Shown: positions 25,875 to 48,595, counted from the first letter of the stretch. The stretch: DNA of 53,945 nt from an uncultured Methanosarcinales archaeon (GCA_964460195.1 CAYWPJ010000006.1:1-53945), one strand, 5' to 3'. Numbers and translations are program-made. The notes: generated from the letters alone by a model not told the origin.

Positions 25875-26519
25875 TCAGGGCCTCACCCATTTAATCTCCC
25901 AGTAAGTCACATCGGCTTCTTCATCGACGCACCCGATCAGCAGCCTTTTCTTGGTGCTGTGCGCCACCCGGTTCTTGGCTGAGAATTCATGCCAGGTCAG
26001 AGTGCTGCCTTCATGCACCGGAAAGACAATCCATTTAGCATGGTCCTCCCCCGGCTTGATGCCCCGCTCATAAACCCGGAAATCGGCGCCGAATTTCAGG
26101 GCGGTCTTGATGATATAACCCCGGTTTCTCATATCCTTGAAGACACAGTACCGGATCCAGAAATTGGGCTCGACTTTGCGCGCCTTTTTCAGGAAAGCCT
26201 CAAAGGTTAGTATCTTTCCGGCATCGCTCCTGACTTCCAGGCGGCCTTTTTCCATCAGGTAAAGGGCTTCCAGGAGCGACAGTTCGAGGCTCCCGTTTTC
26301 TGCCAGGGAGCCGAACCGGGACTGGTTATAGAATTCCCTTGCCTCATCCGAGGATTCGGTGATGGCCTTCTCTCCGCCGAGAACCGCCTTAACAACCGGT
26401 TTTTTCTTTACTTCTTTCTCTTCCGGTTTCTCGGCGCTTGGTTTCTCTGTGTTCTCATCTTTCCCAAAAGAAGTTTCAGGCAAAGCTGCTTCTTGGGGTT
26501 TCTTTTTCTTTCCACCCAT
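25875..26519 (-). CDS. endA: tRNA-splicing endonuclease (EndA, single alpha-type unit) with Lys/Glu-rich N-terminal extension
   Basis: LSLLEALYLMEKGRLEV, RGYIIKTALKFGADFRVYERG, HAKWIV and VAHSTKKRLLIG align by eye with M. jannaschii EndA, including the catalytic Y/H/K. Confidence 0.9.
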   Translation of the reverse strand: MGGKKKKPQEAALPETSFGKDENTEKPSAEKPEEKEVKKKPVVKAVLGGEKAITESSDEAREFYNQSRFGSLAENGSLELSLLEALYLMEKGRLEVRSDAGKILTFEAFLKKARKVEPNFWIRYCVFKDMRNRGYIIKTALKFGADFRVYERGIKPGEDHAKWIVFPVHEGSTLTWHEFSAKNRVAHSTKKRLLIGCVDEEADVTYWEIKWVRP

Positions 26520-26669
26520 GATTCTGGGAAATTACCTCCCTTGTTTTTAAACGTTTCTGAAAAAAACGTCCCGACCGAAAAGTTGGGAGAGCGAACATTC
26601 CGCCCGGCCATCATAATTCAAGACTATAATATCACAAACCTTTTAAGCCAGGCTCCTGCTTCCTTCCCG

Positions 26670-27575
26670 ATGCCGATGATGAAAAAGAGCCGGAAAAGGA
26701 AAGTAATTATTTCTATCCCTGCTTACAATGAAGAGCAGACCCTCCCCAGAGTGATTAGTGAGATTAAGGAAGTGATGAAAGATTCCCCTTATCACTGGCG
26801 AATCTTAGTCCTAGATGACGGCTCTCGGGACAGGACGGCGGAAATCGCCCGGCTGTCGGGGGCCATTGTCCTATCCCACCGCCGGAACCGGGGCCTAGCC
26901 GAGGCCTTCCGCAGCGAGATGGGAGAATGCCTCAGACTGAAAGCGGAGATTATTATTCATACCGACGCTGACGGGCAGTATCTCCCCCAGCATATCCCCC
27001 AAATGATTGAAAAAGTTGAAGAAGGTTATGATTTGGTCCTGGGAAGCCGTTTCCGCGGGAGAATCCAGTCCATGCCTCTCCTGAAAAAGCTCGGAAATGT
27101 CGCTTTCTCTAAAGCTTTAAGTTCGCTGACCCGGACGAGAATCACCGACTCGACGACCGGCTTCCGGGCCTTCACGGCGGAAGTCGCTCGGGAAATAAGT
27201 TATATCAACACTTTCACTTACACGCAGGAGCAGATCATCAAGGCCGCCAAGCAGGGATTCCGGATTACTGAAATACCCATCACCGCCCGAAGAACAAGGG
27301 AAAGCCGCCTTTTTAAAAACCCCTTCCAATACGCCCTCAAGGCCTGGATTAACATCTTAAGGATTTACCGGGATTACGAGCCCCTGATGTTTTTTGGCCG
27401 CATTGGGCTGGCCCTGTTCGCTCTGGGATTGACCATTGGGGTCTGGCTGATTTATCGTTTCCTAACTTTGGGCTACATTGGGAAGATCCCGTCCACCATC
27501 CTCAGCATGCTCCTAATCCTAGTCGGGCTGCAAGTGATCGTCTTCGGCTTTTTAGCGGATATGATGAGGAAGTAA
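26670..27575 (+). CDS. Family 2 glycosyltransferase (dolichyl-phosphate hexose synthase-like) with C-terminal TM helices
   Basis: VIISIPAYNEE, LVLDDGSRD and IHTDADGQ carry the DxD. There are two C-terminal TM helices. The ATG at 26670 is chosen; the track ORF begins at 26493. Confidence 0.8.
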   Translation: MPMMKKSRKRKVIISIPAYNEEQTLPRVISEIKEVMKDSPYHWRILVLDDGSRDRTAEIARLSGAIVLSHRRNRGLAEAFRSEMGECLRLKAEIIIHTDADGQYLPQHIPQMIEKVEEGYDLVLGSRFRGRIQSMPLLKKLGNVAFSKALSSLTRTRITDSTTGFRAFTAEVAREISYINTFTYTQEQIIKAAKQGFRITEIPITARRTRESRLFKNPFQYALKAWINILRIYRDYEPLMFFGRIGLALFALGLTIGVWLIYRFLTLGYIGKIPSTILSMLLILVGLQVIVFGFLADMMRK

Positions 27576-27707: not shown

Positions 27708-28547
27708 TTATGGTGACAAAAGAGGAAGTAGATGCCTAAGATCCGATGATGGTCCTTTAGCATCAATATAATAGATACGTTCCCGCAGATCTGGGTTTGC
27801 CAGTACTTTTTCCTCAAGAAAATCCTGTAATGGTTTGTTATAATTAAAAGCTATTCCTATACCTCCCTTTTCTGCTATTCCAAGAATTCCACCACTATCC
27901 CCCATAGTGTCCCCAATATGAGCAATTTGTGCTGATGATATTTCGGGGAAATATTTTTGTGCATATTCGACAACCAACAGAGCTTTTGCAGTCTCATCAA
28001 CGATGCCTAATTCTATTATGCCGGTGGCTTGAAGAGAGTCATAAATACCACTTCTCGTTGCTTCACTATTGTTGAAATAATCTCGGACAATTTTTTCCAA
28101 TTCAACCTCATTTAACGTAGCTTGGACATCACCATCCCAACCAAATTTCAAATAATTTCCAATAAAGCCATTAATTCTGTAAAATCCAATTTGTTCCCGA
28201 ATAGAATAGAAAGTAACAGAGTATCCGGTGGAATTGATGACAAAGGGAATGCTCCTCATCCCTAATGCATTGACAAAATCAAAAAAACCTGTAACATATT
28301 CCATACGTGTCTTTGTATAATCTATTGCTTGCCGTAGTGTAAGGCCTTTAGTTAACGGGCCAGCATTAGAAAAAGCTTCTTCCATCGATGCCATGCCGGA
28401 AGTTTGTTTCTTAAAAACAGCATCTGCTTCCCTAAACTTTTCTTCACCGATGTACTGTCGAATCATATCACTCATGGTGTGTTGATGCACTAACGTTCCG
28501 TTTAAATCCGAAGAGACAAGACTGATTGGAAGTACTTTTTGTTTCAT
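27708..28547 (-). CDS. HAD-superfamily (subfamily IB-like) protein with D-x-N motif I
   Basis: Motif I is SSDLNGTLV, motif II VINSTG, motif IV IGDTMGDSGG. AT-rich. Confidence 0.55.
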   Translation of the reverse strand: MKQKVLPISLVSSDLNGTLVHQHTMSDMIRQYIGEEKFREADAVFKKQTSGMASMEEAFSNAGPLTKGLTLRQAIDYTKTRMEYVTGFFDFVNALGMRSIPFVINSTGYSVTFYSIREQIGFYRINGFIGNYLKFGWDGDVQATLNEVELEKIVRDYFNNSEATRSGIYDSLQATGIIELGIVDETAKALLVVEYAQKYFPEISSAQIAHIGDTMGDSGGILGIAEKGGIGIAFNYNKPLQDFLEEKVLANPDLRERIYYIDAKGPSSDLRHLLPLLSP

Positions 28548-28715: not shown

Positions 28716-30317
28716 ATGATTAGTAAATTAGCCAAATGGCTCAAACTGACGGCACAGCAAGCTACCCTTCTTCATCTTATGTATTCCCTTCAGGAACAAC
28801 ATTTACCGACAAACCCTATCTCTTTAGAAAAGGCATATCTGCAGCAAACAAAAGTATTTATCCAAAAATCAAACTTATTCACCCAGCTGAAGATTCTACA
28901 AGAGCGAGGCATTGTCACTAAAACCATTAAATCCAACTATATCCTTAATCTTCGGGGTATCCAAGAAGCATTGTTTGTGCAAAAGCAGGAGTTTACCAAA
29001 GACATTGATGAATTAAACCTTTTTATTTCAGATGCTAAAGCTTTCTTTGAGAAAATAATAAAACCAACCGGTGCTTCAGTAACGTACCTCACTGCGGAAG
29101 ATCTCTATAAAAAGTTAGCATTTAATCTTAAAAATGCAACTGCGTATTACTTTGGTTGCGATTTTCCACACTATGCATACACACTTGCATTGTGCACTAA
29201 TGCACAAGAAGCCGCGTATGTTGAAGTGCTTACAGCGAAGATACAGGACAATAATTTTTCATTATTCTGCCTTTCACCGTACCGAATAGAAAGTTTGTCC
29301 TATCGCTTACAAGAGAGGTATAAAAATAAAGAATTCATTAAGGAAGAGCTTAAAGAAGTCTGTACTCGTGCACGGGGGATAACTATTCAATATCAGAATA
29401 TAGAGCTGCGAAAATCTCCCATTCCATTCAATGTTGCTCTAATCGAAAACCCTGCTGAGGGGAATACTTTTTTTATGTTCTTAAAAGATTCAAAAGGGAT
29501 TATTACCGGCGGAATTTTCGTAAATTCCTATGAGACAACAAAACATACGAAACAACACTTTCTGACTCAACTTGGACTAAATCAAGTAATAAAAAAGAGT
29601 GAGGATTTTCCAATCTTCTCTGACACGGAATTTTTGCCAGTTCCTGAAAGTAATAGAAGAAAACTCGTCGCTTTTGATGTCAATCGTATTTTTACTGTTA
29701 ACCATACAACAGTAGAACTCGCAAACCTTGTTGGAAGAGAGAAAGCTGTATTTGGTTTTATTACAAAGCAAATAGAAGGTAATTTAAGTATGCAAGAAGC
29801 TATTTTAGAGAGTGCTCGGCTATTGAAAGGCCTATCGGTAAAAAAAATAGAATCTTTATTACCGAGCATAGCTCTGATAAAGAATGTTAAAAATGGACTT
29901 GTTAAGTTAAAAGAAGCCGGTTATTACATTCTTGCGATATCTTCAGGCTTTAGTCACTTAGTAACTCCAATCTGTAAAGATCTTGGCGTTGATGAAATTT
30001 ACTGCAACGTTTTGGGTGAAAAAGATAGAAAATTAACTGGCGAAGTCATTGAAAGAAGTGTCCTTACTGATGACGTAAAATATTATATTGTAAAATACGT
30101 TCAAGAACGCCTCTCAATACCTCCTGAGAACAGTATTGGTGTAGGAGACGGCTACTCTGATCTTCCACTACTAAAATCCTCAAAAAAGAGAATTTGCTTT
30201 AACCCGAGCAAAAAGATGAAAGAATTATTTGAGGCTGGAGATGAACGTATAACTCATCTCGTAGAAGAACCTGATTTTATGAAAGTAGTAGACTTGATTC
30301 TTGCAGATAAAGATTAA
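28716..30317 (+). CDS. wHTH (TrmB-like) N-terminal domain fused to a SerB-like HAD domain with D-x-N motif I
   Basis: The N-terminus ..LFTQLKILQERGIVTK.. is wHTH-like. The C-terminus has VAFDVNRIFT (motif I variant), AISSGFS and GVGDGYSDLPLL. Confidence 0.55.
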   Translation: MISKLAKWLKLTAQQATLLHLMYSLQEQHLPTNPISLEKAYLQQTKVFIQKSNLFTQLKILQERGIVTKTIKSNYILNLRGIQEALFVQKQEFTKDIDELNLFISDAKAFFEKIIKPTGASVTYLTAEDLYKKLAFNLKNATAYYFGCDFPHYAYTLALCTNAQEAAYVEVLTAKIQDNNFSLFCLSPYRIESLSYRLQERYKNKEFIKEELKEVCTRARGITIQYQNIELRKSPIPFNVALIENPAEGNTFFMFLKDSKGIITGGIFVNSYETTKHTKQHFLTQLGLNQVIKKSEDFPIFSDTEFLPVPESNRRKLVAFDVNRIFTVNHTTVELANLVGREKAVFGFITKQIEGNLSMQEAILESARLLKGLSVKKIESLLPSIALIKNVKNGLVKLKEAGYYILAISSGFSHLVTPICKDLGVDEIYCNVLGEKDRKLTGEVIERSVLTDDVKYYIVKYVQERLSIPPENSIGVGDGYSDLPLLKSSKKRICFNPSKKMKELFEAGDERITHLVEEPDFMKVVDLILADKD

Positions 30318-30613
30318 CCGCGATAGTGTTTAATCTGCGGGATATATTTAAATTATTCGATTTGATTAAACAGGTATATCCCTAAGAGTAAAAAAATCCA
30401 AATTCCATAACCTATTTAAACCTTGATTTAAACTTGTTTTAGAGAAAGAGAAGGGAAGCAGCAAAAAAAAGTCAGGAGGCAGCAAAAAAAGTGGCTGATC
30501 AAAAAATCAAAAACCCAATCGCAGCAAGCTGCGGGGTATGCGCTAGTCATCCCAAAAGTGATTGTGTTTTTGGTGTTTCCTCTGACATCGATGGTCACAG
30601 CAAGCTGTTGGGT

Positions 30614-32875
30614 ATGCACCCAGAGGAAACAATCAAAATCATCGTCACCTTAGGCCCTTCCTGCAATAAAGAAGAAGACCTGCGGACGATCAAAGACAAA
30701 GGAGTGGATTTCGTCCGCATCAATATGTCCCATTCTTCCCTGGAAGACTTAAAATATTTCATCGGCCTGGCAAAGAAGGCCGGCCTGGCTTTCATCATCG
30801 ACACGGAAGGATCGCAGATCCGGTCCGGTGAGCTGGCTTCCGGCTCCCTTGAACTCGAGGAAAACGACGAAGTGAAGATCTACGCCGAACCGGTTGTCGG
30901 CGATAAAACTAAGCTCTCCTTAAAGCCGGGCCAGGCGGTCCGGCAGCTGGAAGAAGGCGACCTTGTTTACATTGACTTTGACACCCTGAGCTTGAGGGTT
31001 TCCGACACTTCCACCCTTAATCAGGGCTACATTCTTGCCAAAGCCATCACTAAAGGTATCATGGACAGCAACAAAGCGGTCAGCCTGGTCTGCGGAACGG
31101 AAAAAAAGGTCTCTCTGCCGACCTTGTCCGAGAAAGACTTCCAATCCATCCAGTTAGGCCTGCAGGAAGGCATCGGCTACATCGCCGCCTCTTTCATCCG
31201 CTCGGGAAAGGCCGTCGATGAAGTCAGGCAGGCGACGCAGAACACGATGAAGATCATTTCCAAGATCGAATGCATCGAGGCGCTGGAGAACCTGGATGAA
31301 ATCATCCGCAAATCTGATTACCTTCTCATCGACCGGGGAGACCTGAGCAAGGAGATCCCCGTGGAAAAGATTCCCTTCACTCAGAACATCATCATCAGGA
31401 AAGCCCGGAAGGAAGGGGTGGGTGTTTTTGTCGCCACCAACCTTCTGGAGACAATGATTGAAAAAAAGAAACCGACCCGGGCGGAAGTTCATGACATCAT
31501 GCGGACAATCGTCGACGGAGCTGCCGGGCTGACGCTGGCCGCCGAAACCGCCATCGGCAAATATCCCATGGAATGCATCAATATGCTTAACAAGCTGATT
31601 CGGCATTCCCAGCTCCTGACCCGGCAGGGAAAGAAAGCTGAACCGGTGCCGGATTGTTTCACTGAAGCTCTGGAAAAAAATAATTATCTTCTTGATCAGG
31701 AAGTCTCTTCCTCTTTGATCCCGCCCCACGGGGGCAGATTAGTCAACCGCGTTCTGAAAAAACCGCCCGAGCCGGAATCCCTCAATTCCCTGCCCCGGCT
31801 GACCCTTCCGGAAACCGCCCAGATGGATGTTGAGCAGATTGCCATAGGCGCCTACAGCCCGATTGAAGGTTTCTTAGGCAAAGAAGACCTGCAAAATGTC
31901 CTGGACAACATGCGGCTGGCCAGCGGGATTGTCTGGCCGATTCCCATTATCTTAGATGTTCCTGAGGAAGAAGCAGCGAAACTTTCCCTGGGAAAGGACG
32001 TGCTTCTGGTCGACGGAGAGAACGAAGCCATGGCCATCCTCCACCTGGAAGAAAAATATTATTTTGACCGGCAGGAGATGGCAGGAAAGATGTACGGCAC
32101 GGAAAACGACGAGCATCCCGGCGTCAGGATGATTAGGAGCCTGAACCCGGTCTTCCTGGCCGGGAAGATTGATTTGCTCCGGCGGAGGAAGGCTGAGTTC
32201 AAAGAGTATCAGCTGACTCCCCGGCAAACTCGGAGAGTTTTCGAGGAAAGAGGCTGGGCTAAAGTCGTCGGTTTCCATACCCGCAACGTCATCCACCGCA
32301 GCCATGAATTCCTCCAGCTCCGAGCCCTGGAGAAAGAGCACGGCGACGGCTTGTTTGTCCATCCCATCGTCGGGAAAAAGAAAAAAGGTGATTTCCATGC
32401 CTCTTACATCATCAAATCATATGAAATGATGAAAAAAGATTTTTATCCAAAGGACAAGGTCGTTTTCGGCACTTTCTGCAGCTATTCCCGCTACGCCGGG
32501 CCGCGGGAATCCTTATTCACCGCCCTTTGCCGGAAGAATTTCGGCTGCAGCCACTTTATTGTCGGCCGGGACCATACCGGCGTCGGCAATTTTTACCACC
32601 CTAAAGCGGCGCACACCATCTACCAGCGGTTTCCTGACTTGGGGATCAAGCCGATTTTCTTCGACCAGGTTTTTTATTCCGGGAAGCTGGACAAATATAT
32701 CCATGAAAAAGATTCCCCTGACCATCCGGAAGAGGACAAGCGGCAAATCAGCGGGACGCAGGCCAGGGAGATGCTGGAGCGGGGAGAACTGCCGCCAGCC
32801 TGGTTCATGCGCCCGGAGATCTCCCGGATGATCGTTGACAGCCTTAAGAGGGGCGAGGAGGTTTTCGTCAGATGA
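30614..32875 (+). CDS. Fusion protein: pyruvate kinase catalytic (A/B) domains + ATP sulfurylase (sulfate adenylyltransferase)
   Basis: PK motifs: IVTLGPS, RINMSHS, KIISKIECIEALENLDEI, DRGDLSKEIP, ATNLLETM, PTRAEVHDI, AAETAIGKYP. Sat motifs: PPHGGRLV, SPIEGFL, FHTRNVIHRSHE, HPIVGKKKKGDF, GRDHTGVG. The ATG at 30614 is preferred over the GTG at 30491. Confidence 0.85.
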   Translation: MHPEETIKIIVTLGPSCNKEEDLRTIKDKGVDFVRINMSHSSLEDLKYFIGLAKKAGLAFIIDTEGSQIRSGELASGSLELEENDEVKIYAEPVVGDKTKLSLKPGQAVRQLEEGDLVYIDFDTLSLRVSDTSTLNQGYILAKAITKGIMDSNKAVSLVCGTEKKVSLPTLSEKDFQSIQLGLQEGIGYIAASFIRSGKAVDEVRQATQNTMKIISKIECIEALENLDEIIRKSDYLLIDRGDLSKEIPVEKIPFTQNIIIRKARKEGVGVFVATNLLETMIEKKKPTRAEVHDIMRTIVDGAAGLTLAAETAIGKYPMECINMLNKLIRHSQLLTRQGKKAEPVPDCFTEALEKNNYLLDQEVSSSLIPPHGGRLVNRVLKKPPEPESLNSLPRLTLPETAQMDVEQIAIGAYSPIEGFLGKEDLQNVLDNMRLASGIVWPIPIILDVPEEEAAKLSLGKDVLLVDGENEAMAILHLEEKYYFDRQEMAGKMYGTENDEHPGVRMIRSLNPVFLAGKIDLLRRRKAEFKEYQLTPRQTRRVFEERGWAKVVGFHTRNVIHRSHEFLQLRALEKEHGDGLFVHPIVGKKKKGDFHASYIIKSYEMMKKDFYPKDKVVFGTFCSYSRYAGPRESLFTALCRKNFGCSHFIVGRDHTGVGNFYHPKAAHTIYQRFPDLGIKPIFFDQVFYSGKLDKYIHEKDSPDHPEEDKRQISGTQAREMLERGELPPAWFMRPEISRMIVDSLKRGEEVFVR

Positions 32876-33438
32876 AACCCCTGATTATCACCTGCGGCTT
32901 GTCCGGCTCGGGCAAGACCTTCCATTCAAAGAAACTGAAGGAAAAGCTGGCTGGTTACCGTTTGATCAACCTGGGCCAGTTCCGGGAGCAGCTGGGCATT
33001 ACTACTTATTCCCGCAAAGATACGCCTAAAATGCTGGCCCTGGCCATCGAGGAGATTGAAAAGAACCATCATCTCGGCTTCGGCTCCCTCCTCGACGCTA
33101 ATTTAAAGACCAATGACTTGAGGCAGTGCTTCTATGACCTGGCCAAATATTTAGGAACGGAAGTCCTCCTCATCGAGATGAGCTGCTCTGACGAAGCCGC
33201 CCGCCGGAGGATGGAAGAACGGGAGCAGACGACTCTGGCTGAGAACCCGAAATTGTTCTCTGTCTATCTCGAGCAGAAGAAGGTCTGGCAGGACACTTTA
33301 ATGGACTTAGAGTTGGCCGGGAATGAGCATCTGACGGTCATCAAATACAATACTGAAAGCCATTCCTTAGAATTAATTAAGGGGAATCTGGCTGGTTCTG
33401 CTCTGGTTGGGCAAATCGTGGAAGTGTTGGCTGGTTGA
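32872..33438 (+). CDS. P-loop kinase (AAA_33/APS-kinase-like fold; substrate unknown)
   Basis: Walker A is CGLSGSGKT. LLDANLKTNDLRQ resembles the DxTN motif of AAA_33 kinases. The ATG overlaps the upstream stop (ATGA at 32872-32875). Confidence 0.6.
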   Translation: MKPLIITCGLSGSGKTFHSKKLKEKLAGYRLINLGQFREQLGITTYSRKDTPKMLALAIEEIEKNHHLGFGSLLDANLKTNDLRQCFYDLAKYLGTEVLLIEMSCSDEAARRRMEEREQTTLAENPKLFSVYLEQKKVWQDTLMDLELAGNEHLTVIKYNTESHSLELIKGNLAGSALVGQIVEVLAG

Positions 33439-33576: not shown

Positions 33577-33927
33577 CTATTTTTTAACAAGATTATTTTC
33601 AGGATTTTTATGATTATATTTTGCTAGAATTTCTTTTTTAACAAGATTAAACGCTTCTTCAATATCAACATCAAGTTGATTCGCAAGGCGACAAGTGCCG
33701 AAAAACAAATCTCCTATCCCATCAACAAAAATATCTTTATTTTCCTCTACAAATTTTTTGCGTTCTTCTTCTGATTTATATCTCAAATGTTGTGACATTT
33801 CAACAAGTTCTTCATGTAAATGGTCAAACTTATCAACACTTGGCACATCTTTCCAATTGTTACGCTCAGCAAAAAATTTGAGTGATTTCTGAGCTTCTTT
33901 CATTGTGGTGATTTGTTTTTCTTCCAT
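33577..33927 (-). CDS. MazG-like nucleoside triphosphate pyrophosphohydrolase (small, all-alpha)
   Basis: FAERNNW..FDHLHEELVEMSQH and GIGDLFFGTCRLANQLDVDIEEAF match the EExxE/D metal-binding helices of the MazG family. AT-rich. Confidence 0.7.
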   Translation of the reverse strand: MEEKQITTMKEAQKSLKFFAERNNWKDVPSVDKFDHLHEELVEMSQHLRYKSEEERKKFVEENKDIFVDGIGDLFFGTCRLANQLDVDIEEAFNLVKKEILAKYNHKNPENNLVKK

Positions 33928-33999: not shown

Positions 34000-34752
34000 C
34001 TAATTCCTCTCCCGATCTTCCTTCAGCAGACTGAGGGACTGGCTGAGCAGTTTCCTCAAAAATTCTAAAAAGTTGACCAGGGAATAGGCAATTAAAGTGT
34101 AATGAGGCAGATCAAAAATTATTCCAAAAAAAAGCAGGTTCCCCAGATGCTCGACCCGGAAGAAGTCAAAGAGCCGCTGTTTCCAGTTAAACCGCCCCGT
34201 CAGCGATCCGGAGCGGAGAGCCGACTGCTGCATCAGCTCAAAAACCTTGTTTCTTTCCTCTTCGGTCTTCGAATACCAGGCCGGGTTTAGAGTAATCGCC
34301 TTGTTAAGCAGATAAAAAAGAGCGGCAGCGAAACCAAAAATCAGGTAGAGGGGGCCGAAGCGGAGGGAAGTGCCTATACCTAAGCAGACGAAGAGGAAAG
34401 GATTGTTGACATAGTGCCCCAGCTGATCAAGATATTTCGGGAAAAGCTTCTTCCGCAGCGGGCGTTGGGGATGGTGATAGCGGTAGAGTTTCCCGTCCGA
34501 CAGGTCAAGGACAAACATCAGCTGGAAAAGGACAATCCCCAGGACGAAGTAGCGGTATTCCCCGCTCAGGAAAAGCAGGGGGATAAAAAACTGGAAGATG
34601 ACCCAGAAAAAAGTCAGCTGGGTAGGAGTAACCTTCAAAAGGAGGGCTAGTTTAACAATATAATTGGCAAAGTAATCTAAAACTCTTTCATAACCCCATC
34701 TTTTAGTTTGGGTTTGTTCACGAATGGTTTTTATTGACGGAAGTTTCATCAC
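34000..34752 (-). CDS. Divergent CDP-alcohol phosphatidyltransferase-like membrane protein
   Basis: Polytopic. DLSDGKLYR corresponds to DxxDGxxAR, followed by KYLDQLGHY. It is a paralog of 36401..37234. Confidence 0.55.
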   Translation of the reverse strand: MMKLPSIKTIREQTQTKRWGYERVLDYFANYIVKLALLLKVTPTQLTFFWVIFQFFIPLLFLSGEYRYFVLGIVLFQLMFVLDLSDGKLYRYHHPQRPLRKKLFPKYLDQLGHYVNNPFLFVCLGIGTSLRFGPLYLIFGFAAALFYLLNKAITLNPAWYSKTEEERNKVFELMQQSALRSGSLTGRFNWKQRLFDFFRVEHLGNLLFFGIIFDLPHYTLIAYSLVNFLEFLRKLLSQSLSLLKEDRERN

Positions 34753-36272
34753 TCCACTCTTTTCTCTCCCTTTTCTCCTGTTTTCGCTCTGCGTTTAAAA
34801 ATTTTCTGAACAAAAAGCCAATCTTCCTTCCTGATCTCCCCAAATAAGTACAAAAATAGCAGGTAGATTGAAAACAAAGCGAAGTAATTCACCAGTAAAA
34901 GTATTCCCGAGTATTGCCAGAAAGAAGCCAGGATAAAAATTAACAGAGAGAGAGCGGTTATTTTCAGGAAAGAAGAAAGACCAACCAGGGTTTTCCATTT
35001 CCCATACGTGTAGGCCAGAGCGGCCAGCAGGGCGATTAAAGCAGCTGACAGGAAGGACCAGGCCGCCCCGATTAAGCCTAGTTTAGGAATTAACAGCCAG
35101 CTGATCAAAAACAGGGCGGCTAAAATGATGATGGTCATGCCCATTTCCACTTTCGGCCGGCCGCTGCCGGTAATCACTGAAGCCAGCAGGGTAAAGACAG
35201 CCAGGGCGCCGGAGCCTAAAGCCAGAAGGGTAAAAACCGGCGCCGCCGGAAGATAATCCGGCGGATAAAATAAGACGACTAATTTTTCCGAGGTGGCTGT
35301 AATCAGGGCCAGGCAGGGGAAAAGAAGCAGCAGAAGGTAACGCAGCGAGCCGGAAAGATATTTCTTTGCCTGCTCAACTTTTCCCGCCGAGAAAGCCCGG
35401 GAGACGGAGGGCATTAAAGTGATGGCCACAACGGAAAAGACCATGAAAGGGAACTGGGAAAGGGTCAAAGCGGCTGTATAGTAGCCCATCAATTCGTTGC
35501 TCACCAGAAAATATTTGACTAAAAAAGTGTTAAGATTTCTCACTAAGGTCAGAGCCAGGGCAGCAACCGTGACCGGCAGGGAAAATTTTAAGATTTCAAC
35601 CCATCCGAAAGTTCTTCCCGAGCTAAAAGCCCGCGCCGGACCGCTTTTCTGGGGCAGGTTCCGCTGCAGAAGCCAGGCGCCGGCCAGAAAAGAAACGACG
35701 GCGGCTAACAAATAACCGGTTAAAACCCCCCAAAGCTGGAATCCCAGAAAAACCAAAACGACGACCAAGATCATTCTCAGGAAGGGATAGCCGACCCTGA
35801 GGATGAACTGCTGCCGGAAAAGACGCAGTCCGTTAAGATAACCGTTGGGATAGAGAGAATTGAGAGCCAAAGGAAAAACGATTACCCCTAAAAGGATCAG
35901 GTAACCTTTCAGCAGGGGCTCTTTGAGAAAGGAAGCCAGGAATCCGGCAGAGAGGATATAGATTAAAGAAAGAGAAATACCTAAAATAACCTGCAGCCGG
36001 AAGGAAGTTTTGATCAGTGATTGTGCGTTAACCTTTGTCTCGGAAAGGAATTTGGCCACCGCTTTAGGTATCCCGGTATTGAGAAAAGCGCGGTTGAAGA
36101 GATAGAGGGACATCAGCAGGCCGAAAATACCGTACATTTCCACTCCCAATTGCCGGGCTAAGATAATGTGTAAAAGATAGTTGGAAAGGATGAAAACCAG
36201 TTCGGAAACCATCATGTAAAAAGTAGCGACTCCCATTGACTGGGCTCTCTTTGGCTGGCTCGACTGGCTCAT
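34749..36272 (-). CDS. MOP-superfamily polysaccharide/oligosaccharide flippase (Wzx-like)
   Basis: 507 aa with about 12-14 TM helices and an N-terminus typical of polysaccharide biosynthesis protein families. It overlaps the downstream gene by 4 nt. Confidence 0.75.
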   Translation of the reverse strand: MSQSSQPKRAQSMGVATFYMMVSELVFILSNYLLHIILARQLGVEMYGIFGLLMSLYLFNRAFLNTGIPKAVAKFLSETKVNAQSLIKTSFRLQVILGISLSLIYILSAGFLASFLKEPLLKGYLILLGVIVFPLALNSLYPNGYLNGLRLFRQQFILRVGYPFLRMILVVVLVFLGFQLWGVLTGYLLAAVVSFLAGAWLLQRNLPQKSGPARAFSSGRTFGWVEILKFSLPVTVAALALTLVRNLNTFLVKYFLVSNELMGYYTAALTLSQFPFMVFSVVAITLMPSVSRAFSAGKVEQAKKYLSGSLRYLLLLLFPCLALITATSEKLVVLFYPPDYLPAAPVFTLLALGSGALAVFTLLASVITGSGRPKVEMGMTIIILAALFLISWLLIPKLGLIGAAWSFLSAALIALLAALAYTYGKWKTLVGLSSFLKITALSLLIFILASFWQYSGILLLVNYFALFSIYLLFLYLFGEIRKEDWLFVQKIFKRRAKTGEKGEKRVE

Positions 36273-36400
36273 GGGAAATTTTCGGCGGCTAAAAAGTATT
36301 TAAGCCTGCTGGAAGAAAGAGACATAAAAAGCTTTCAAAGGCGTGTTGAAATATATATTCAGATAAGTATTGGGAGCCTTCATTTTAGCTCTTTTTCATT

Positions 36401-37234
36401 TTAGCTCTTCTTTATTTTCAGTTTCATTCCTTTGTCAAAACGGCCCAACATCTTTAACTGCACGTAGATCACCCGCAGCATTTTCAAAAGATAGATGGGA
36501 GTATAAACAAAAATAGCCCATTGGGGCAGGTTGACCAGGATCAGGAGAGTCATCAGATTCAAAGGATTGCTCCTCCGGAAAATGAGGAAAAGATTGATTA
36601 ATTTCTGGCTTTTGGGCCGGGTGGACAGCTTTTCTTTAATGATTAAGACTTTTTTTCTCATATCCTTTGCGTAATAAAAAGGATCAGTGATCGCCAGTTG
36701 GCTGTAAAGAATGCTGAAAGCGGCAACTAGCCCGAGGATAAGATACAGATAGTCGTCGTAAGCGAGGGACGTGCCGAGCGACAGGCAGAGGAAAAAGATC
36801 GGCCCGCCGAAATATAACCCCAACTCTTCCAGAAAGATGCCCCGATAGCTTCTGATCTTCTTTATTCTGGCCAGCTGCCCGTCGATATAGTCCAGCAGGG
36901 CGGCGGACGTGTAGAGAAGCACGCCAATGACGTTGAATTTGTATGTCCCAAAGACCATCAAGAAGGAAGCAAATAGCTGCAGGAAAACCCAAAAGGCAGT
37001 GATTTGGTTGGGGGTGATATTTGTCTTTAAGATAATTCTGGTCACGTAGAGCAGCGAATGATGCATCAGGACGCTGAACCAGGAATAATAATCTTTCTTG
37101 CAAAGTTCCCGCAGCTCGGCCATGGAAATATCTTTATAAGGCTTGGATGGATAAGGTTTAGGGGGATCTGATTTAGAAGGATGTGATTTTGAGAGGTAAG
37201 GTTTAGGCGGCTCTTTTTTGGCTGGTTTGGGCAT
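36401..37234 (-). CDS. CDP-alcohol phosphatidyltransferase family protein (divergent second half-motif)
   Basis: LLDYIDGQLAR-x8-GIFLEELGL means D1, D2, G and AR are present, D3 is Glu and D4 is absent. The N-terminus is proline/lysine-rich with PKPY/PSKS repeats. Confidence 0.65.
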   Translation of the reverse strand: MPKPAKKEPPKPYLSKSHPSKSDPPKPYPSKPYKDISMAELRELCKKDYYSWFSVLMHHSLLYVTRIILKTNITPNQITAFWVFLQLFASFLMVFGTYKFNVIGVLLYTSAALLDYIDGQLARIKKIRSYRGIFLEELGLYFGGPIFFLCLSLGTSLAYDDYLYLILGLVAAFSILYSQLAITDPFYYAKDMRKKVLIIKEKLSTRPKSQKLINLFLIFRRSNPLNLMTLLILVNLPQWAIFVYTPIYLLKMLRVIYVQLKMLGRFDKGMKLKIKKS

Positions 37235-40366: not shown

Positions 40367-40446
40367 TTTTCAACATCACTCCTTTCGGCATCACTCCGGA
40401 ACTGAGGCTCAATAATTTTATAAACCTTGTGAAAAAGAGGGTAAGG

Positions 40447-41295
40447 ATGAAGGAAGAGGCAGTAGAAATTCGAGAAGAGGCAGCAGAAACTCCCCGGCCC
40501 GAAGCAAAAAAAGTAGAGGAAATCAACCTCAAAAAAGCAGAGGAAGTCAACATTAAAGAAGCAGGAGAAATCGACATCAGTCAGTTCAGCCGGACAAAAA
40601 AAAAGTTTGCGCTGGTATGCCAAAACGATATTCCTTATTTAATCAAGGAAATCAGCCTTAAAAACCTGGCCGGCAAACATTCCCTTCAATTTTTCTATGA
40701 GCAGATTTTGGAATATATCTACCTCATCCGGCAGGCCGGGATTCCCCTTCCGGAGATAGCTGAACATTCTCGGAAAGATGACAAACTGTCTTTTACCTGC
40801 CGGTACCACGGGAAAAATTTCCTCCAGCTGGCCCAAAATCCGGCCAGGCTTGTCGGGGAAATGCTGCCTTTGGTGAAAAAAGCCGTGCGCATCCTGCGGC
40901 AGGCACAGGAAGCAAACCTCTCCCTGGACCCCAACCTTAAGTACTTTTGTTCTGACGAAGAGGGGAAAGTTTATTTTGTTGATTTTTCCCCCCCTTACGG
41001 GCTGGACTACCGGGAGCAGAACTATGATCAAATAGTCATCAGGGCCACGGCGCCAGAGCACCAGGCAATCGTCGCCCAAAACTTAGAGTGCTTTAAGCCG
41101 GAAAATTTAGGGTTTCATTTCGCCGGCGATTTGCTGAAAGAAGATCCGGCCTATGAAGAGATCATGCCCGGCCTATACCAGCTCTTGGTGGAAGAGAGAG
41201 TTGTTTCGGTTCCCTACCATGAATTCCTGCAGAGGGCCCATCAGGTCAAAAAGATTGAATTGGACCGGATTGGCCGCGGTCTCCGGCTGAGCTGA
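40447..41295 (+). CDS. Hypothetical protein (acidic N-terminus; possible kinase-like fold, unproven)
   Basis: ATG at 40447; the track start at 40429 is GTG. LSLDPNLKYF..KVYFVDFSPP only vaguely recalls kinase catalytic and DFG-like segments. Confidence 0.4.
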   Translation: MKEEAVEIREEAAETPRPEAKKVEEINLKKAEEVNIKEAGEIDISQFSRTKKKFALVCQNDIPYLIKEISLKNLAGKHSLQFFYEQILEYIYLIRQAGIPLPEIAEHSRKDDKLSFTCRYHGKNFLQLAQNPARLVGEMLPLVKKAVRILRQAQEANLSLDPNLKYFCSDEEGKVYFVDFSPPYGLDYREQNYDQIVIRATAPEHQAIVAQNLECFKPENLGFHFAGDLLKEDPAYEEIMPGLYQLLVEERVVSVPYHEFLQRAHQVKKIELDRIGRGLRLS

Positions 41296-42316: not shown

Positions 42317-43528
42317 TCAGCAGCAGAAACTTCTCATCTGCTCGAGATTGTCCTTAAACGTTCCGGCTTTAAACAGTCCGGAAGTTCCGCCGACAAAAAT
42401 CCTCGCTCCCGCCTGGTAGAGATGGGGCAGGGTTCTTGGCCCGACCGAGCCGTCAACCATAATGGAAACCGGCTGTGCGTGCTCCCGGGCGTATTCGCTG
42501 AAAGCCCGGATGCGCTCAATGACGGAAGGAACAAATTCGTTGCCCTTAAACCCCGGTTCGACACCCATGAAGAGAACCAGACTAATCTTTCCCAGGAAAG
42601 GGTATAATTTTTCCACCGGCGTCCCGGGATTAATGGCCAGCCCGGCTTTCATCCCTCTGGCTTTGATATCGTCAAGAACGCCGTCAATGCCCGCTTCACT
42701 TTCCAGATGGACGATGACAATGTCCGCGCCGGCTTCCGCCAGGCGGGAGATGTAAGAGGCAGGGTATTTAACCATCAGATGAACATCAATCGGCAGGTAG
42801 GTGTGGGACCTTAAGGCGGCGATATGATCGATGTTCAGGGAAATATTGCGGCTGAAATCGCCGTCGATAATATCGATGTGGAACATATCGACATCGGCTT
42901 CAGCTAGTTTTCTGATGTCATCAAGCAGATGAAGCTGGTTGGCGCACATCAGCGAAGCGGAGATTTTCACTTCCCGGCCCCGGGTGTCATTCAACATGGC
43001 TGAGGAGAGGATCTCTCCGGAACTTTGGTCCCGGCCTTCGATGATATGCTTTTCGATGATGGAAATCTGGTTTCTCCGCCTCTGATGCCTTTCCCCTTCG
43101 GCTTCAGTGAAAAGCCAGGTTCTGACGATTTCTTTCGCCTGCTGGCTGGAGAGGTGGCCGGCCCCCAAAGCGAGGATGTTGCTGTCGGTATGCCGGCGGC
43201 TTAACTCGGCCACTTCATGATTGTAAGCCAGGGCGGCTCGGATACGGGGGAACTTATTGTCGACGATGGAGACTCCCACCCCGGTTTTACAGACGACAAT
43301 TCCCCTTCGGTACTGTCCTTTGGATACTTTGTCGGCGACGGAAAGGGCATAGATGGGGAAATCAACGCTTTCTTGAGAATAAGTACCCAAGTCCAGGGGC
43401 TGGAAACCGAGCTGGGTGAGATACTGCTTGAGTTCCTCTTTAAGCTCAAAAGCCGGGTGGTCACTGGCGATAGGTATGACTTCGGGCATGACCTCTTTTG
43501 TCATGATGGGGAAGGCCGGACAGAGCAT
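42317..43528 (-). CDS. Fusion protein: ribose-5-phosphate isomerase B (N) + ribulose-phosphate 3-epimerase family (C)
   Basis: RpiB motifs: IPIASDHPAFELKEEL, GIVVCKTGVGVSIVDNKFPRIRAAL, RRHTDSNILALG, EGERHQRR. Rpe motifs: SASLMCAN, FHIDIIDGDF, IDVHLMV, MGVEPGFKG, MVDGSV. Start could be 43528, 43504 or 43489. Confidence 0.85.
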   Translation of the reverse strand: MLCPAFPIMTKEVMPEVIPIASDHPAFELKEELKQYLTQLGFQPLDLGTYSQESVDFPIYALSVADKVSKGQYRRGIVVCKTGVGVSIVDNKFPRIRAALAYNHEVAELSRRHTDSNILALGAGHLSSQQAKEIVRTWLFTEAEGERHQRRRNQISIIEKHIIEGRDQSSGEILSSAMLNDTRGREVKISASLMCANQLHLLDDIRKLAEADVDMFHIDIIDGDFSRNISLNIDHIAALRSHTYLPIDVHLMVKYPASYISRLAEAGADIVIVHLESEAGIDGVLDDIKARGMKAGLAINPGTPVEKLYPFLGKISLVLFMGVEPGFKGNEFVPSVIERIRAFSEYAREHAQPVSIMVDGSVGPRTLPHLYQAGARIFVGGTSGLFKAGTFKDNLEQMRSFCC

Positions 43529-45982: not shown

Positions 45983-46081
45983 TTTTATAATCCTCAATTA
46001 TCTTTAATTTTATTTAATCATTTATTGTATCTTAACTATTTCTACTGTTTTTATTTTTAAAGCATGTTCTTAAAGCATATC

Positions 46082-46519
46082 CTAAAGCACCCTGACCCTG
46101 GCTTCGCCTTCCACCAGCAATTTATCCCCTTCCCAGACAGTTGTTCTCAACTCGAGGAGGCGCAGGGCGTCAACTTTTTTGGTCACTTCCCCGCGGACGA
46201 CGATGGTCTGCCCGATCTTCACCGGCCGCCGGAAATTTAAACTCTGTGAAAGATAAAGACATCTTTTTCCCGGCAGGTGCATCCCAACCAAAGCCGAAAA
46301 GAGCGAACCGACCAGCATCCCGTGAGCGATCTTCCCGCCAAAGGGGGTCGTCCGGGCAAAATCCCCGTCAACGTGCAAAGGATTAAAATCACCGGTCAAA
46401 CGGGCAAAACAATTGATTTCCTCTTCACCAATCAGCTTGCTGAAACTGGCCTGATCGCCGACTTGGATCTTTTCGTAACTTAAGTCTGCCGCCTTTAAGC
46501 CGGCTTGGTCAATCATCAA
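46082..46519 (-). CDS. MaoC-like (R)-specific enoyl hydratase/dehydratase (hot-dog fold)
   Basis: FARLTGDFNPLHVD..IAHGMLVGSLFS is the hydratase 2 motif. Confidence 0.85.
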   Translation of the reverse strand: MMIDQAGLKAADLSYEKIQVGDQASFSKLIGEEEINCFARLTGDFNPLHVDGDFARTTPFGGKIAHGMLVGSLFSALVGMHLPGKRCLYLSQSLNFRRPVKIGQTIVVRGEVTKKVDALRLLELRTTVWEGDKLLVEGEARVRVL

Positions 46520-48578: not shown

Positions 48579-48595
48579 TTTTTAATCTCTTTTCT

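What the first reader, a model, noticed from the sequence alone, without database searches (positions are those of the whole stretch)
30614..33438. Pyruvate-kinase catalytic domain fused to ATP sulfurylase, translationally coupled to a P-loop kinase
All hallmark PK active-site segments are present (ISKIE.., DRGDLSKEIP, ATNLLETM, PTRAEV.D, ETAIGKYP). The usual C-terminal regulatory domain is replaced by a complete ATP sulfurylase with its PUA-like N-domain, HxxH-type FHTRNVIHRSH and GRDHTG. The next gene overlaps by ATGA and encodes a GLSGSGKT kinase. One reading is a PAPS-forming module in which PEP-driven ADP-to-ATP recycling pulls the unfavourable sulfate activation step. Alternatively the Sat-like half may adenylylate something other than sulfate. 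No sulfotransferase or APS/PAPS reductase is visible in the window. I do not recall this domain combination being described.
Basis: partly seen in the sequence, partly recalled or inferred. Interest (0 to 1): 0.7.

Follow-up and report, generated by a model that had tools for sequence, protein, structure and literature searches.

The report
Pyruvate kinase fused to ATP sulfurylase
An archaeal gene fuses a working-looking pyruvate kinase to a working-looking sulfate-activating enzyme; the fusion is real, widespread and unstudied, and most likely makes the sulfate donor PAPS with built-in ATP recycling for sulfating the cell surface.

Summary
ORF 30491/30614-32875 (+) encodes a PK barrel, a PUA-like domain and an ATP-sulfurylase domain. 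It has no PK C-terminal domain. It overlaps by ATGA a 188-aa P-loop kinase gene (32872-33438).

It is not an assembly artefact. More than 120 close homologues and about 73 representatives at 50% identity share the architecture, in DPANN archaea and several bacterial phyla.

Related fusions also exist: Sat-PK (reverse order), full-length PK-Sat, PK-APS kinase and PK-Sat-APS kinase. Syntenic loci carry sulfotransferases, CysQ-like phosphatases and glycan-synthesis genes.

Best reading: a PAPS-forming module in which PK re-phosphorylates the ADP released by the kinase step. This mirrors the PK/PEP regeneration needed in vitro to avoid the APS kinase-ADP-APS dead-end complex.

- The 188-aa kinase is not a canonical APS kinase; its fold is closest to 6PF2K. 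It occupies the APS kinase slot in a mutually exclusive way, so it is a candidate replacement.
- The fused Sat clade carries His/Thr where canonical enzymes have Gln/Ala at the sulfate site.
- About a third of representatives have a dead Sat domain but an intact PK.

The window has no sulfotransferase. I found no paper describing the fusion.

The parts
30491..32875 (+). PK-Sat fusion gene. It is 794 aa from the GTG at 30491. The probable true start is the ATG at 30614, which gives 753 aa.
   Evidence: ORF; Pfam; NCBIfam; homologue alignment; AF2 model pLDDT 87.6, pTM 0.86, aa 1-45 disordered.
30632..31579 (+). Pyruvate kinase A+B (barrel and cap) domain, aa 48-363, with no PK_C domain after it.
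   Evidence: PF00224 1.5e-69. Equivalents of R72, N74, S76, D112, T113, R119, K269, E271, D295, T327 and E363 are all present. Family signature DTEGSQ(I/V)R.
31580..31717 (+). Inter-domain linker, aa 364-409: a helix followed by a partly conserved NYLLD...SSSLIPPHGG lead-in.
   Evidence: Alignment; AF2 low confidence only at aa 380-384.
31718..32182 (+). PUA-like N-domain of ATP sulfurylase, aa 410-564.
   Evidence: PF14306 1.7e-46.
32204..32839 (+). ATP-sulfurylase catalytic domain, aa 572-783, with FHTRNVIHRSHE and GRDHTG.
   Evidence: PF01747 1.9e-77. NF003166 scores 444 bits against a 387 cutoff. Best PDB match 8a8d, E 2e-102.
32872..33438 (+). 188-aa P-loop kinase (AAA_33; fold closest to 6PF2K), joined by an ATGA overlap. 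Candidate non-canonical APS kinase.
   Evidence: It is always immediately downstream of PK-Sat in relatives.
28716..30317 (+). 533-aa protein with a SerB-like HAD-IB C-terminal domain and an unknown N-terminal half. Conserved neighbour of the fusion.
   Evidence: 57-61% identical homologues next to PK-Sat in L002/L003 and L005.
27708..28547 (-). 279-aa HAD-like protein. Conserved neighbour of the fusion.
   Evidence: 49-58% identical homologues next to PK-Sat in L001, L002/L003 and L005.
26493..27575 (+). GT2 glycosyltransferase. Conserved neighbour of the fusion.
   Evidence: 64-70% identical homologues in L001, L002/3, L006, L008-L010.
34000..37234 (-). Two CDP-alcohol phosphotransferase-like membrane proteins (34000-34752 and 36401-37234) flanking a Wzx-type flippase (34749-36272). 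This is the surface-glycan or lipid part of the cluster.
   Evidence: homologues beside PK-Sat in L002, L006, L007, L009, L010.

Best explanation
The gene encodes a bifunctional pyruvate kinase / ATP sulfurylase that belongs to a PAPS-synthesis and sulfation module inside a cell-surface glycan gene cluster of a DPANN archaeon. The proposed steps are as follows. The Sat half makes APS and PPi from ATP and sulfate. The translationally coupled 188-aa kinase phosphorylates APS to PAPS and releases ADP; in most relatives a canonical APS kinase, adjacent or fused, does this step. The PK half uses PEP to turn that ADP back into ATP on the spot. The net reaction is sulfate + ATP + PEP -> PAPS + PPi + pyruvate. 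The benefit is local removal of ADP, which traps APS kinase in an enzyme-ADP-APS dead-end complex, and a high local ATP level for two ATP-consuming steps. The Sat module also takes the place of the missing PK C-domain as the structural partner of the PK barrel. What is shown: the domain content, the intact catalytic residues, the conserved architecture and the genomic association. What is inferred: both enzyme activities, the identity of the 188-aa kinase's substrate, and any physical coupling between the parts.
For: - Domains and residues.
- The fusion is conserved. All 120 best hits (62-80% identity) have PK+PUA_2+ATP-sulfurylase, and 12 of them also carry a C-terminal PF01583 APS kinase. 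73 representatives at 50% identity have an intact PK joined to a Sat or Sat-like half.
- Separate fusion arrangements link PK to the PAPS enzymes: Sat-PK in reverse order, with a PK only 33% identical to the window's; PK+PK_C-Sat, also with a 33%-identical PK; and PK-APS kinase without Sat, seen in two assemblies next to a sulfotransferase.
- Context: sulfotransferase, APS kinase and CysQ-like Inositol_P genes are adjacent in L002/3, L004, L006, L007, L013, L015, L020, L022, L025, L027.
- The 188-aa kinase family lies immediately downstream of PK-Sat wherever the upstream DNA is present. It is followed by sulfotransferase + CysQ-like in four loci (L006, L007, L025, L027). It never co-occurs in a locus with PF01583. 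Ten other PK-Sat loci (L001-L004, L009, L010, L013, L015-L017) have PF01583 and no kin188.
- Profile comparison of the kinase family with APS kinases gives 95.7% probability; R38 aligns with the Arg of DGDxxR.
- Literature: APS kinase forms an enzyme-ADP-APS dead-end complex (PMC3734648). A PK/PEP regeneration system was required for PAPS synthesis in vitro (PMC9885120).
- The AF2 pTM of 0.86 for the whole chain suggests a defined packing of the two halves.
Against: - No sulfotransferase, CysQ or canonical APS kinase lies in the 54-kb window.
- The 188-aa kinase lacks the APS kinase DGD motif. Its fold is closest to 6-phosphofructo-2-kinase (TMq 0.78), while APS kinase ranks only 41st (TMq 0.59).
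- The sulfate-site Gln and Ala of canonical sulfurylases are His and Thr here.
- 23 of 73 representative fusions have a degenerate Sat domain but an intact PK. PK therefore does not strictly need an active fused Sat.
- L004 carries a canonical Sat + APS kinase in the same cluster in addition to PK-Sat, which hints at non-redundant roles.
- No biochemical data exist.
Confidence: 0.6

Rival explanations
1. The protein is primarily a pyruvate kinase. The Sat-derived half acts mainly as a replacement regulatory or oligomerisation domain, for example sensing APS, PAPS or ATP, rather than as a significant source of APS.
For: PK catalytic residues are conserved in every full-length fusion. The Sat motifs are degenerate in 23 of 73 representatives, and these still sit in the same kind of cluster. 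PK_C, the usual allosteric domain, is missing. There is precedent for dead sulfate-pathway domains used as regulators: the APS-kinase-like allosteric domain of fungal ATP sulfurylase (my own knowledge), and the degenerate Sat-like domain fused to an APS kinase in L013.
Against: In the window's clade all Sat catalytic motifs are invariant across 120 homologues. In most loci the fused Sat is the only Sat-motif gene next to APS kinase and sulfotransferase. The protein passes the NCBIfam sulfate adenylyltransferase cutoffs.
Confidence: 0.15
2. The His/Thr-type Sat half acts on an anion other than sulfate, such as selenate, phosphate or a phosphonate. One possibility is an ATP + Pi -> ADP + PPi cycle which, together with PK, would give PEP + Pi -> pyruvate + PPi. 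In that case the module would not be a sulfate activator.
For: The residues that contact sulfate in canonical enzymes are changed. The Gln of QTRN is His, and the Ala of GRDHAG is Thr. Both changes are clade-wide. L004 carries a canonical Sat + APS kinase alongside PK-Sat.
Against: The same His/Thr Sat is fused to canonical APS kinase in 12 close homologues. It is the only Sat next to sulfotransferase and CysQ-like genes in many loci. All other ATP/APS-binding motifs are canonical.
Confidence: 0.1
3. The 188-aa kinase is not an APS kinase. It would phosphorylate a sugar or sugar phosphate of the glycan pathway, or act like an adenylate kinase (AMP + ATP -> 2 ADP) that feeds PK. APS would then be used directly, or phosphorylated by an enzyme encoded elsewhere.
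For: The best structural matches are 6PF2K, polynucleotide kinase and gluconokinase. There is no PF01583 or TIGR00455 match beyond the P-loop. The DGD motif is absent.
Against: The kinase and canonical APS kinase are mutually exclusive in PK-Sat loci, and it occupies the identical operon position. Four kin188 loci have the gene order kinase - sulfotransferase - CysQ-like, which implies PAPS use with no other APS kinase in view. Many invariant Arg/Lys and aromatic residues fit an anionic nucleotide substrate (inference).
Confidence: 0.3
4. The fusion is an assembly or gene-calling artefact that joins separate PK and sat genes.
For: None beyond the a priori possibility. A few PK-only and Sat-only representatives of the same clade exist; they may be split genes or fragments.
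Against: A single uninterrupted ORF. The same architecture occurs in more than 120 clusters at 90% identity, from NCBI, JGI, ENA and Logan assemblies, and on a 10.4-Mb contig. The linker is conserved. The whole chain gives a confident single-chain model.
Confidence: 0.01

Closest known systems
Bifunctional PAPS synthases and Sat-APS kinase fusions (human PAPSS1/2; Aquifex aeolicus Sat/APSK, PDB 2gks)
   Same: Enzymes of the sulfate-activation pathway are joined on one polypeptide. The Sat domain is homologous (2gks E 1.5e-69). 12 close relatives of the window protein also carry the APS kinase domain.
   Different: The fused partner here is pyruvate kinase, a central-metabolism enzyme that is not part of the classical pathway. 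The window protein has no APS kinase domain. Its sulfate site has His/Thr instead of Gln/Ala.
ATP sulfurylase of Methanothermococcus thermolithotrophicus (PDB 8a8d; PMC10322725)
   Same: It is the closest solved structure for the Sat half (E 2e-102 over aa 410-780). It has the PUA-like plus catalytic domains, the RN..H..H motif and GRDH.
   Different: It is a stand-alone homodimer with QTRN and GRDHAG and a Cys-rich stretch in domain III. The window protein has HTRN and GRDHTG, lacks those cysteines, and carries an N-terminal PK.
Canonical pyruvate kinase (e.g. Geobacillus stearothermophilus 2e28, E. coli PykF 1pky)
   Same: A+B domains and all catalytic, Mg2+ and K+ ligands are present.
   Different: There is no C-terminal allosteric domain (PF02887). 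The protein scores below the TIGR01064 equivalog cutoff, 288 against 306 bits. It has the DTEGSQ(I/V)R signature (E114, Q117) where DTKGPEIR is canonical. It sits in a glycan and sulfation cluster, not a glycolytic context.
Engineered PK/PEP ATP-regeneration systems for enzymatic PAPS synthesis (PMC9885120)
   Same: The proposed logic is the same: PK removes the ADP made by APS kinase, which prevents the enzyme-ADP-APS dead-end complex and recycles ATP.
   Different: That is an artificial mixture of separate enzymes. Here the coupling is genetically fixed in natural proteins, and it is untested.
6-phosphofructo-2-kinase domain and AAA_33 P-loop kinases (for the 188-aa protein)
   Same: Best structural matches (TMq 0.73-0.79, E about 1e-10). 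Pfam AAA_33 2.6e-13.
   Different: Sequence identity is only 17-19%. The family has its own invariant motifs (YSRKDTP, DANLK, RQ.FYD). It is a small family restricted to the slot downstream of PK-Sat.

Membership tests
Pyruvate kinase (PF00224 / TIGR01064) | TIM-barrel A domain with inserted B (cap) domain | tested here: met
   PF00224 aa 48-363 covers model positions 4-328 of 328, 235 bits against a cutoff of 30.
Pyruvate kinase (PF00224 / TIGR01064) | Catalytic and metal-binding residues (rabbit M1 numbering, from my own knowledge of the family: R72, N74, S76, D112, T113, R119, K269, E271, D295, T327, E363) | tested here: met
   All 11 are present at window aa 76, 78, 80, 104, 105, 111, 258, 260, 284, 316 and 352. 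They are conserved in all full-length fusions.
Pyruvate kinase (PF00224 / TIGR01064) | C-terminal alpha/beta regulatory domain (PF02887) and full-length equivalog score | tested here: not met
   No PK_C hit. TIGR01064 scores 288.2 bits, below the 306.4 cutoff; the match covers model positions 3-339 of 476 only.
Pyruvate kinase (PF00224 / TIGR01064) | PEP + ADP -> pyruvate + ATP activity | not testable with these tools
   Needs an enzyme assay.
Homo-oligomeric ATP sulfurylase (Sat; PF14306+PF01747, TIGR00339, NF003166) | PUA-like N-domain plus catalytic domain, scoring above curated cutoffs | tested here: met
   PF14306 158 bits and PF01747 260 bits. NF003166 scores 444.4 against 387; TIGR00339 scores 369 against 322.95.
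Homo-oligomeric ATP sulfurylase (Sat; PF14306+PF01747, TIGR00339, NF003166) | RN..H..H nucleotidyl-transfer motif and the GRDH motif | tested here: met
   TRNVIHRSH and GRDH align with 8a8d, 1v47, 2gks, 4dnx and 1jhd. They are invariant in 120 homologues.
Homo-oligomeric ATP sulfurylase (Sat; PF14306+PF01747, TIGR00339, NF003166) | Canonical sulfate-pocket residues: the Gln of QTRN and the Ala of GRDHAG | tested here: not met
   His596 and Thr696 take their places. All five aligned PDB sulfurylases have Gln; four have GRDHAG and 2gks reads GRDHAS. The His/Thr pair is characteristic of the PK-associated clade.
Homo-oligomeric ATP sulfurylase (Sat; PF14306+PF01747, TIGR00339, NF003166) | ATP + sulfate -> APS + PPi activity | not testable with these tools
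   Needs an enzyme assay.
APS kinase (CysC; PF01583 / TIGR00455), tested for the 188-aa protein | Family profile match above the cutoff | tested here: not met
   No PF01583 hit. NF004041 gives E 0.0015 and 18.6 bits against a 127 cutoff, P-loop only. BLASTP against real APS kinases matches only the P-loop.
APS kinase (CysC; PF01583 / TIGR00455), tested for the 188-aa protein | GLSGSGK(S/T) P-loop together with the DGDxxR motif | tested here: not met
   The P-loop is present. DGD is absent (N-L/P-G instead), although the Arg is retained as invariant R38.
APS kinase (CysC; PF01583 / TIGR00455), tested for the 188-aa protein | Structural similarity to APS kinase | tested here: inconclusive
   hhalign against an APS kinase profile gives 95.7% probability over 111 columns. 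Foldseek ranks 6PF2K first (TMq 0.78) and APS kinase 41st (TMq 0.59).
APS kinase (CysC; PF01583 / TIGR00455), tested for the 188-aa protein | Operon association with Sat and with PAPS-using genes | tested here: met
   It is immediately downstream of PK-Sat in the window, L006, L007, L008, L026, L103 and the JGI locus. In L005 it lies two genes downstream, after the HAD533 and HAD279 homologues. It is followed by sulfotransferase + CysQ-like in L006, L007, L025 and L027. It is mutually exclusive with PF01583.
Bifunctional PAPS synthase (Sat+APSK on one chain) | An APS kinase domain on the same polypeptide as Sat | tested here: not met
   The window protein has no kinase domain. 12 close homologues of about 920-1340 aa do.

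The most novel reading that the evidence does not exclude
PK-Sat, with its partner kinase, is a natural PEP-driven PAPS synthase complex. PK would be an obligate, physically coupled ADP-scavenging and ATP-supplying subunit. The Sat fold would double as the scaffold that replaces PK_C and would be retained even where it is catalytically dead. The 6PF2K-like 188-aa kinase would be a previously unrecognised, non-orthologous class of APS kinase. The His/Thr sulfate pocket would be an adaptation of this PK-associated sulfurylase clade.
Probability: 0.35. Interest if true: 0.75.

Novelty: new variant of a known kind. Interest (0 to 1): 0.6.

Why it matters
- Sulfate activation is thermodynamically and kinetically awkward. 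Known solutions are fusion of the sulfurylase to APS kinase, or to a GTPase (CysN). A conserved natural fusion to pyruvate kinase would be a third solution: glycolytic PEP would be tied directly to PAPS supply.
- It would be the natural counterpart of the PK/PEP regeneration trick that biocatalysis groups add by hand. That makes these proteins candidate one-piece PAPS generators.
- There is a practical consequence for metagenomics. One gene scores as both 'pyk' and 'sat', so it can inflate inferences of glycolytic ATP gain and of sulfur cycling in DPANN and CPR genomes. For example, sat was reported in all, and pyk in 75%, of the vent DPANN MAGs in PMC8091004.
- The candidate replacement APS kinase and the dead-Sat members are each testable leads.

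Tried and rejected
- ARAGORN found no tRNAs; Rfam found two intron-containing ones.
- Nine literature searches for the fusion, using combinations of pyruvate kinase, ATP sulfurylase / sulfate adenylyltransferase, fusion/fused, DPANN, Woesearchaeota and PAPS, gave no description of it.
- I looked for a hidden sulfotransferase, CysQ or APS kinase in the window by Pfam on about 48 ORFs and by tblastn with relatives' proteins at E up to 5. Only noise came back. The 288-aa ORF at 40429-41295 gave a weak sulfotransferase hit (E 0.27), but by eye its sequence resembles a protein-kinase-like fold, so I rejected it.
- The metagenome scan with the kinase family returned mostly distant generic P-loop kinases (22-35% identity) with no Sat association. 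Only four new informative loci emerged.
- The PDB sequence search with the 188-aa kinase was uninformative; the best hit was 6PF2K at E 0.011. The same search with the HAD-like 279-aa protein gave only a weak phosphoserine phosphatase match.
- I considered PK acting as a PEP-dependent APS kinase and a sulfoenolpyruvate-type sulfuryl transfer. I dropped both because nothing in the data supports them.
- Inter-domain contacts could not be extracted; the structure tool returns only confidence and secondary structure.
- Whether the fusion is the only PK in its genome could not be tested from a 54-kb window.
Full report
**What is in the sequence**

The + strand carries one uninterrupted ORF, 30491..32875 (794 aa from a GTG).

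Pfam finds three domains:
- a complete pyruvate kinase barrel (aa 48-363, 1.5e-69, model positions 4-328 of 328);
- a PUA-like domain (aa 410-564, 1.7e-46);
- an ATP-sulfurylase domain (aa 572-783, 1.9e-77).

There is no PK C-terminal domain.

NCBIfam gives the same picture. The Sat half passes the curated sulfate adenylyltransferase cutoffs: NF003166 scores 444 against 387, and TIGR00339 scores 369 against 323. The PK half falls just short of the full-length equivalog cutoff (288 against 306 bits), because only model positions 3-339 of 476 are matched.

The next ORF, 32872..33438 (188 aa, GLSGSGKT), begins at an ATG that overlaps the TGA stop as ATGA.

On the start codon, homologues begin at about aa 43-46, and aa 1-45 are predicted disordered. 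ATG 30614 is therefore the likelier start. An AGGAGG 11 nt upstream of the GTG leaves the longer form possible.

**The organism**

The window is archaeal. It encodes the tRNA splicing endonuclease, FEN1, Trm5/TYW2, a proteasome alpha subunit, aIF2-alpha and GatD, and it has two intron-containing tRNAs. The nearest homologues that carry a source name are from Woesearchaeota and Nanoarchaeota MAGs. It is therefore most likely a DPANN archaeon.

**The fusion is not an artefact and is not rare**

- The 120 best database hits (62-80% identical) come from NCBI, JGI, ENA and Logan assemblies. All have PK+PUA_2+ATP-sulfurylase. Sources name them 'sulfate adenylyltransferase' or 'pyruvate kinase'.
- A search of representatives at 50% identity gave 73 clusters with an intact PK joined to a Sat or Sat-like half, down to 32% identity to the query.
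- In GTDB genomes the fusion also occurs in bacteria at 52-62% identity: an Ardenticatenaceae 10.4-Mb contig, Chloroflexia, Anaerolineae, Gemmatimonadota, a deltaproteobacterium, Parcubacteria and Nitrospinia.
- No PDB chain spans both halves.
- Nine literature searches found no description of the fusion.

**Catalytic integrity**

Equivalents of the PK residues R72, N74, S76, D112, T113, R119, K269, E271, D295, T327 and E363 are all present (rabbit muscle numbering, from my own knowledge of the family). In the 73 fusions counted here, 9 to 11 of the 11 are retained; T113S is the commonest change. The family has its own DTEGSQ(I/V)R signature.

The Sat half aligns end to end with solved sulfurylases. 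The best match is M. thermolithotrophicus 8a8d (E 2e-102). The TRN..H..H and GRDH motifs are retained.

The Gln of the canonical QTRN motif is His. The Ala of GRDHAG is Thr. These are the residues that line the sulfate site in canonical enzymes (my own knowledge).

The His/Thr pair is essentially invariant in the close family: 118 of 120 have GRDHTGV and nearly all have FHTRNV. It marks the PK-associated clade. Canonical Gln/Ala sulfurylases, whether stand-alone or Sat-APS kinase, form a separate group in a rough neighbour-joining tree.

**Evidence for a functional link between PK and PAPS synthesis**

Other architectures exist besides PK-Sat:

| Architecture | Example | Detail |
|---|---|---|
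| PK-Sat-APS kinase | 12 of the 120 close hits | canonical PF01583 at the C-terminus |
| Sat-APSK-PK-Sat | P0003 | 1341 aa |
| Sat-PK, reverse order | P0203 | PK only 33% identical to the window's; K+-independent-type signature |
| PK+PK_C-Sat | P0160 | full-length PK, also 33% identical; Sat 54% identical |
| PK-APS kinase, no Sat | P0230 | two independent assemblies, beside a sulfotransferase |

Identities are, and the P0230 context is. Several separate unions of PK with one or other PAPS enzyme are classic evidence of a shared pathway.

**Genomic context**

Relatives of PK-Sat sit in surface-glycan clusters of glycosyltransferases, Wzx-type flippases, sugar-modifying enzymes and CDP-alcohol phosphotransferase-like proteins. 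These clusters also carry the rest of a sulfation pathway:
- Sulfotransfer_1 genes directly adjacent (L002/3, L004, L006, L007, L020);
- canonical APS kinase adjacent (L001, L004, L009, L010, L015, L016, L019, L022);
- an APS kinase-CysQ fusion or a CysQ-like Inositol_P gene (L003, L006, L007, L015, L025, L027).

The bacterial Ardenticatenaceae locus reads PK-Sat, a 533-aa unknown protein, a degenerate-Sat/APS kinase, a sulfotransferase and a flippase. There, PK-Sat is the only gene with sulfurylase catalytic motifs.

The window is syntenic with these loci. It shares the GT2, the two HAD proteins, the flippase and the CDP-alcohol phosphotransferase-like genes at 31-70% identity. It contains no sulfotransferase, CysQ or canonical APS kinase within 54 kb.

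**The 188-aa kinase**

It is not a canonical APS kinase:
- there is no PF01583 or TIGR00455 match beyond the P-loop;
- the DGD motif is missing;
- a confident model (pLDDT 92) is closest to the 6-phosphofructo-2-kinase domain (TMq 0.78), then to polynucleotide kinase and gluconokinase, with APS kinase only at rank 41.

It belongs to a small family of 24 clusters with distinctive invariant motifs: YSRKDTP, DANLK and RQ.FYD.

Every close member whose upstream DNA is available lies directly after PK-Sat: the window, L006, L007, L008, L026, L103 and a JGI contig. L005 is the exception, where it follows two genes further on. In L006, L007, L025 and L027 it is followed by a sulfotransferase and a CysQ-like gene. 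None of these loci has PF01583. Ten other PK-Sat loci (L001-L004, L009, L010, L013, L015-L017) have PF01583 and no member of this family.

A profile comparison with APS kinases gives 95.7% probability. The invariant R38 aligns with the Arg of DGDxxR, and the LGIT segment aligns with the LGF(S/T) segment.

I therefore regard it as a candidate displacement of APS kinase. This is an inference. The locus counts are small and are not phylogenetically independent.

**Proposed mechanism**

1. Sat: ATP + sulfate -> APS + PPi.
2. Kinase: APS + ATP -> PAPS + ADP.
3. PK: ADP + PEP -> ATP + pyruvate.

A hallmark of APS kinases is uncompetitive substrate inhibition through an enzyme-ADP-APS dead-end complex (PMC3734648). 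In an engineered cascade, PAPS was 'practically missing' without a PK/PEP regeneration module (PMC9885120). The natural fusions look like the genetic fixation of that same coupling.

PK does not directly pull the sulfurylase equilibrium, because ADP comes from the kinase step. PK keeps that kinase turning over, which in turn removes APS. PK also keeps ATP high.

The direct PK-APS kinase fusion (P0230) fits this reading best.

**An unexpected twist**

In 23 of the 73 representative fusions the Sat motifs are destroyed (4 or fewer of 7 key residues) while PK is fully intact. In one such protein the PK half is 60% identical to the window's, but the Sat-like half is only 35% identical.

These proteins still sit beside APS kinases and sulfotransferases (L019, L020, L022). 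No other sulfurylase motif is present in those loci.

So PK is the constant activity of the family, and the Sat fold evidently also has a non-catalytic role. That role is plausibly as a structural substitute for PK_C or as a docking module. The whole-chain AF2 pTM of 0.86 is consistent with a fixed packing of the two halves.

For the window protein the Sat motifs are intact and invariant in its clade, so a bifunctional enzyme remains the best reading.

**Unexplained**

- The meaning of the His/Thr sulfate pocket.
- Why L004 carries a canonical Sat + APS kinase as well as PK-Sat.
- The source of APS in loci whose fusion has a dead Sat domain.
- The roles of the two conserved HAD proteins. They could be a PPi or PAP phosphatase, but that is a guess.
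- The absence of a sulfotransferase from this window.

**Verdict**

This is a real, widespread and apparently unpublished variant of the multi-enzyme sulfate-activation theme. It carries three testable extras: PK coupling, a candidate new APS kinase, and pseudo-sulfurylase members. Interest is 0.6.

Noticed in passing
window 11867-12018 (+) and 14928-15067 (+); 25875-26519 (-): Two tRNA genes of 152 and 140 nt, so presumably intron-containing. Rfam found them but ARAGORN missed them. A tRNA splicing endonuclease gene lies nearby. This fits an archaeal (DPANN) origin.
   Followed up: partly
window 28716-30317 (+) and 27708-28547 (-): A 533-aa protein (unknown N-terminal half plus a SerB-like HAD-IB domain) and a 279-aa HAD-like protein are conserved neighbours of PK-Sat in L001, L002/3 and L005 (49-61% identity). 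Neither was detected in the bacterial loci. Their role is unknown; a PPi or PAP phosphatase is one guess.
   Followed up: partly
window 34000-34752 (-), 36401-37234 (-); L004, L006, L007, L009, L010, L020: CDP-alcohol phosphotransferase-like membrane proteins recur right next to PK-Sat, Sat or APS kinase genes. It is untested whether they only add a phospho-alcohol to the glycan or lipid, or whether they could use APS, which resembles their CDP-X donors.
   Followed up: no
L019, L020, L021, L022 (P0159, P0152, P0226, P0205) and about 19 further representatives: PK-Sat-like fusions whose Sat HxxH and GRDH motifs are destroyed while PK is intact. They still lie beside APS kinase or sulfotransferase genes. 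These are pseudo-sulfurylase domains.
   Followed up: partly
P0230 (L023 3070-4671, L024 1805-3406); P0203; P0160; P0184; P0003; P0029: Other architectures were seen: PK-APS kinase without Sat, Sat-PK in reverse order, full-length PK(+PK_C)-Sat, nucleotide pyrophosphatase-PK-Sat, Sat-APSK-PK-Sat, and NTP-transferase-PK-Sat.
   Followed up: partly
L002 17619-20510, L006 1232-4159, L007 13388-15279, L008 4161-7031, L020 9293-12364: A 960-1020-aa protein with PPDK_N and PEP-utilizers (swivel His) domains, but no PEP-binding barrel, recurs beside PK-Sat. Most copies also carry an N-terminal cytidylyltransferase domain; L020 lacks it. It is always followed by a class-I glutamine amidotransferase. 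The window has no copy.
   Followed up: no
window 42317-43528 (-); 1134-2447 (-); 90-1112 (+): Other gene fusions occur in the window: RpiB + ribulose-phosphate 3-epimerase, nucleoside phosphorylase + phosphoribosyltransferase, and a 340-aa protein with two HIT-domain matches.
   Followed up: no
window 45227-49039 (-): A run of genes: FkbH_N+GNAT (582 aa), a 4'-phosphopantetheinyl transferase, a MaoC dehydratase and an SDR. It suggests an acyl or glyceryl-carrier type modification within the same glycan region.
   Followed up: no
window 30491-30613 (+): A Cys-rich 41-aa N-terminal extension of the annotated ORF (..CGVCASHPKSDC..) is absent from homologues and predicted disordered. An AGGAGG precedes the GTG. 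The true start codon is uncertain.
   Followed up: partly
window 33577-33927 (-): A 116-aa MazG-like nucleotide pyrophosphohydrolase (weak NCBIfam hits only) is convergent with the kinase gene. It is not conserved in the related loci.
   Followed up: partly
Literature: PMC8091004: A survey of vent DPANN MAGs reports sat in all MAGs and pyk in 75%, and reads them as sulfur dissimilation and glycolytic ATP gain. A single PK-Sat gene could account for both calls, so such inferences may need re-checking.
   Followed up: no
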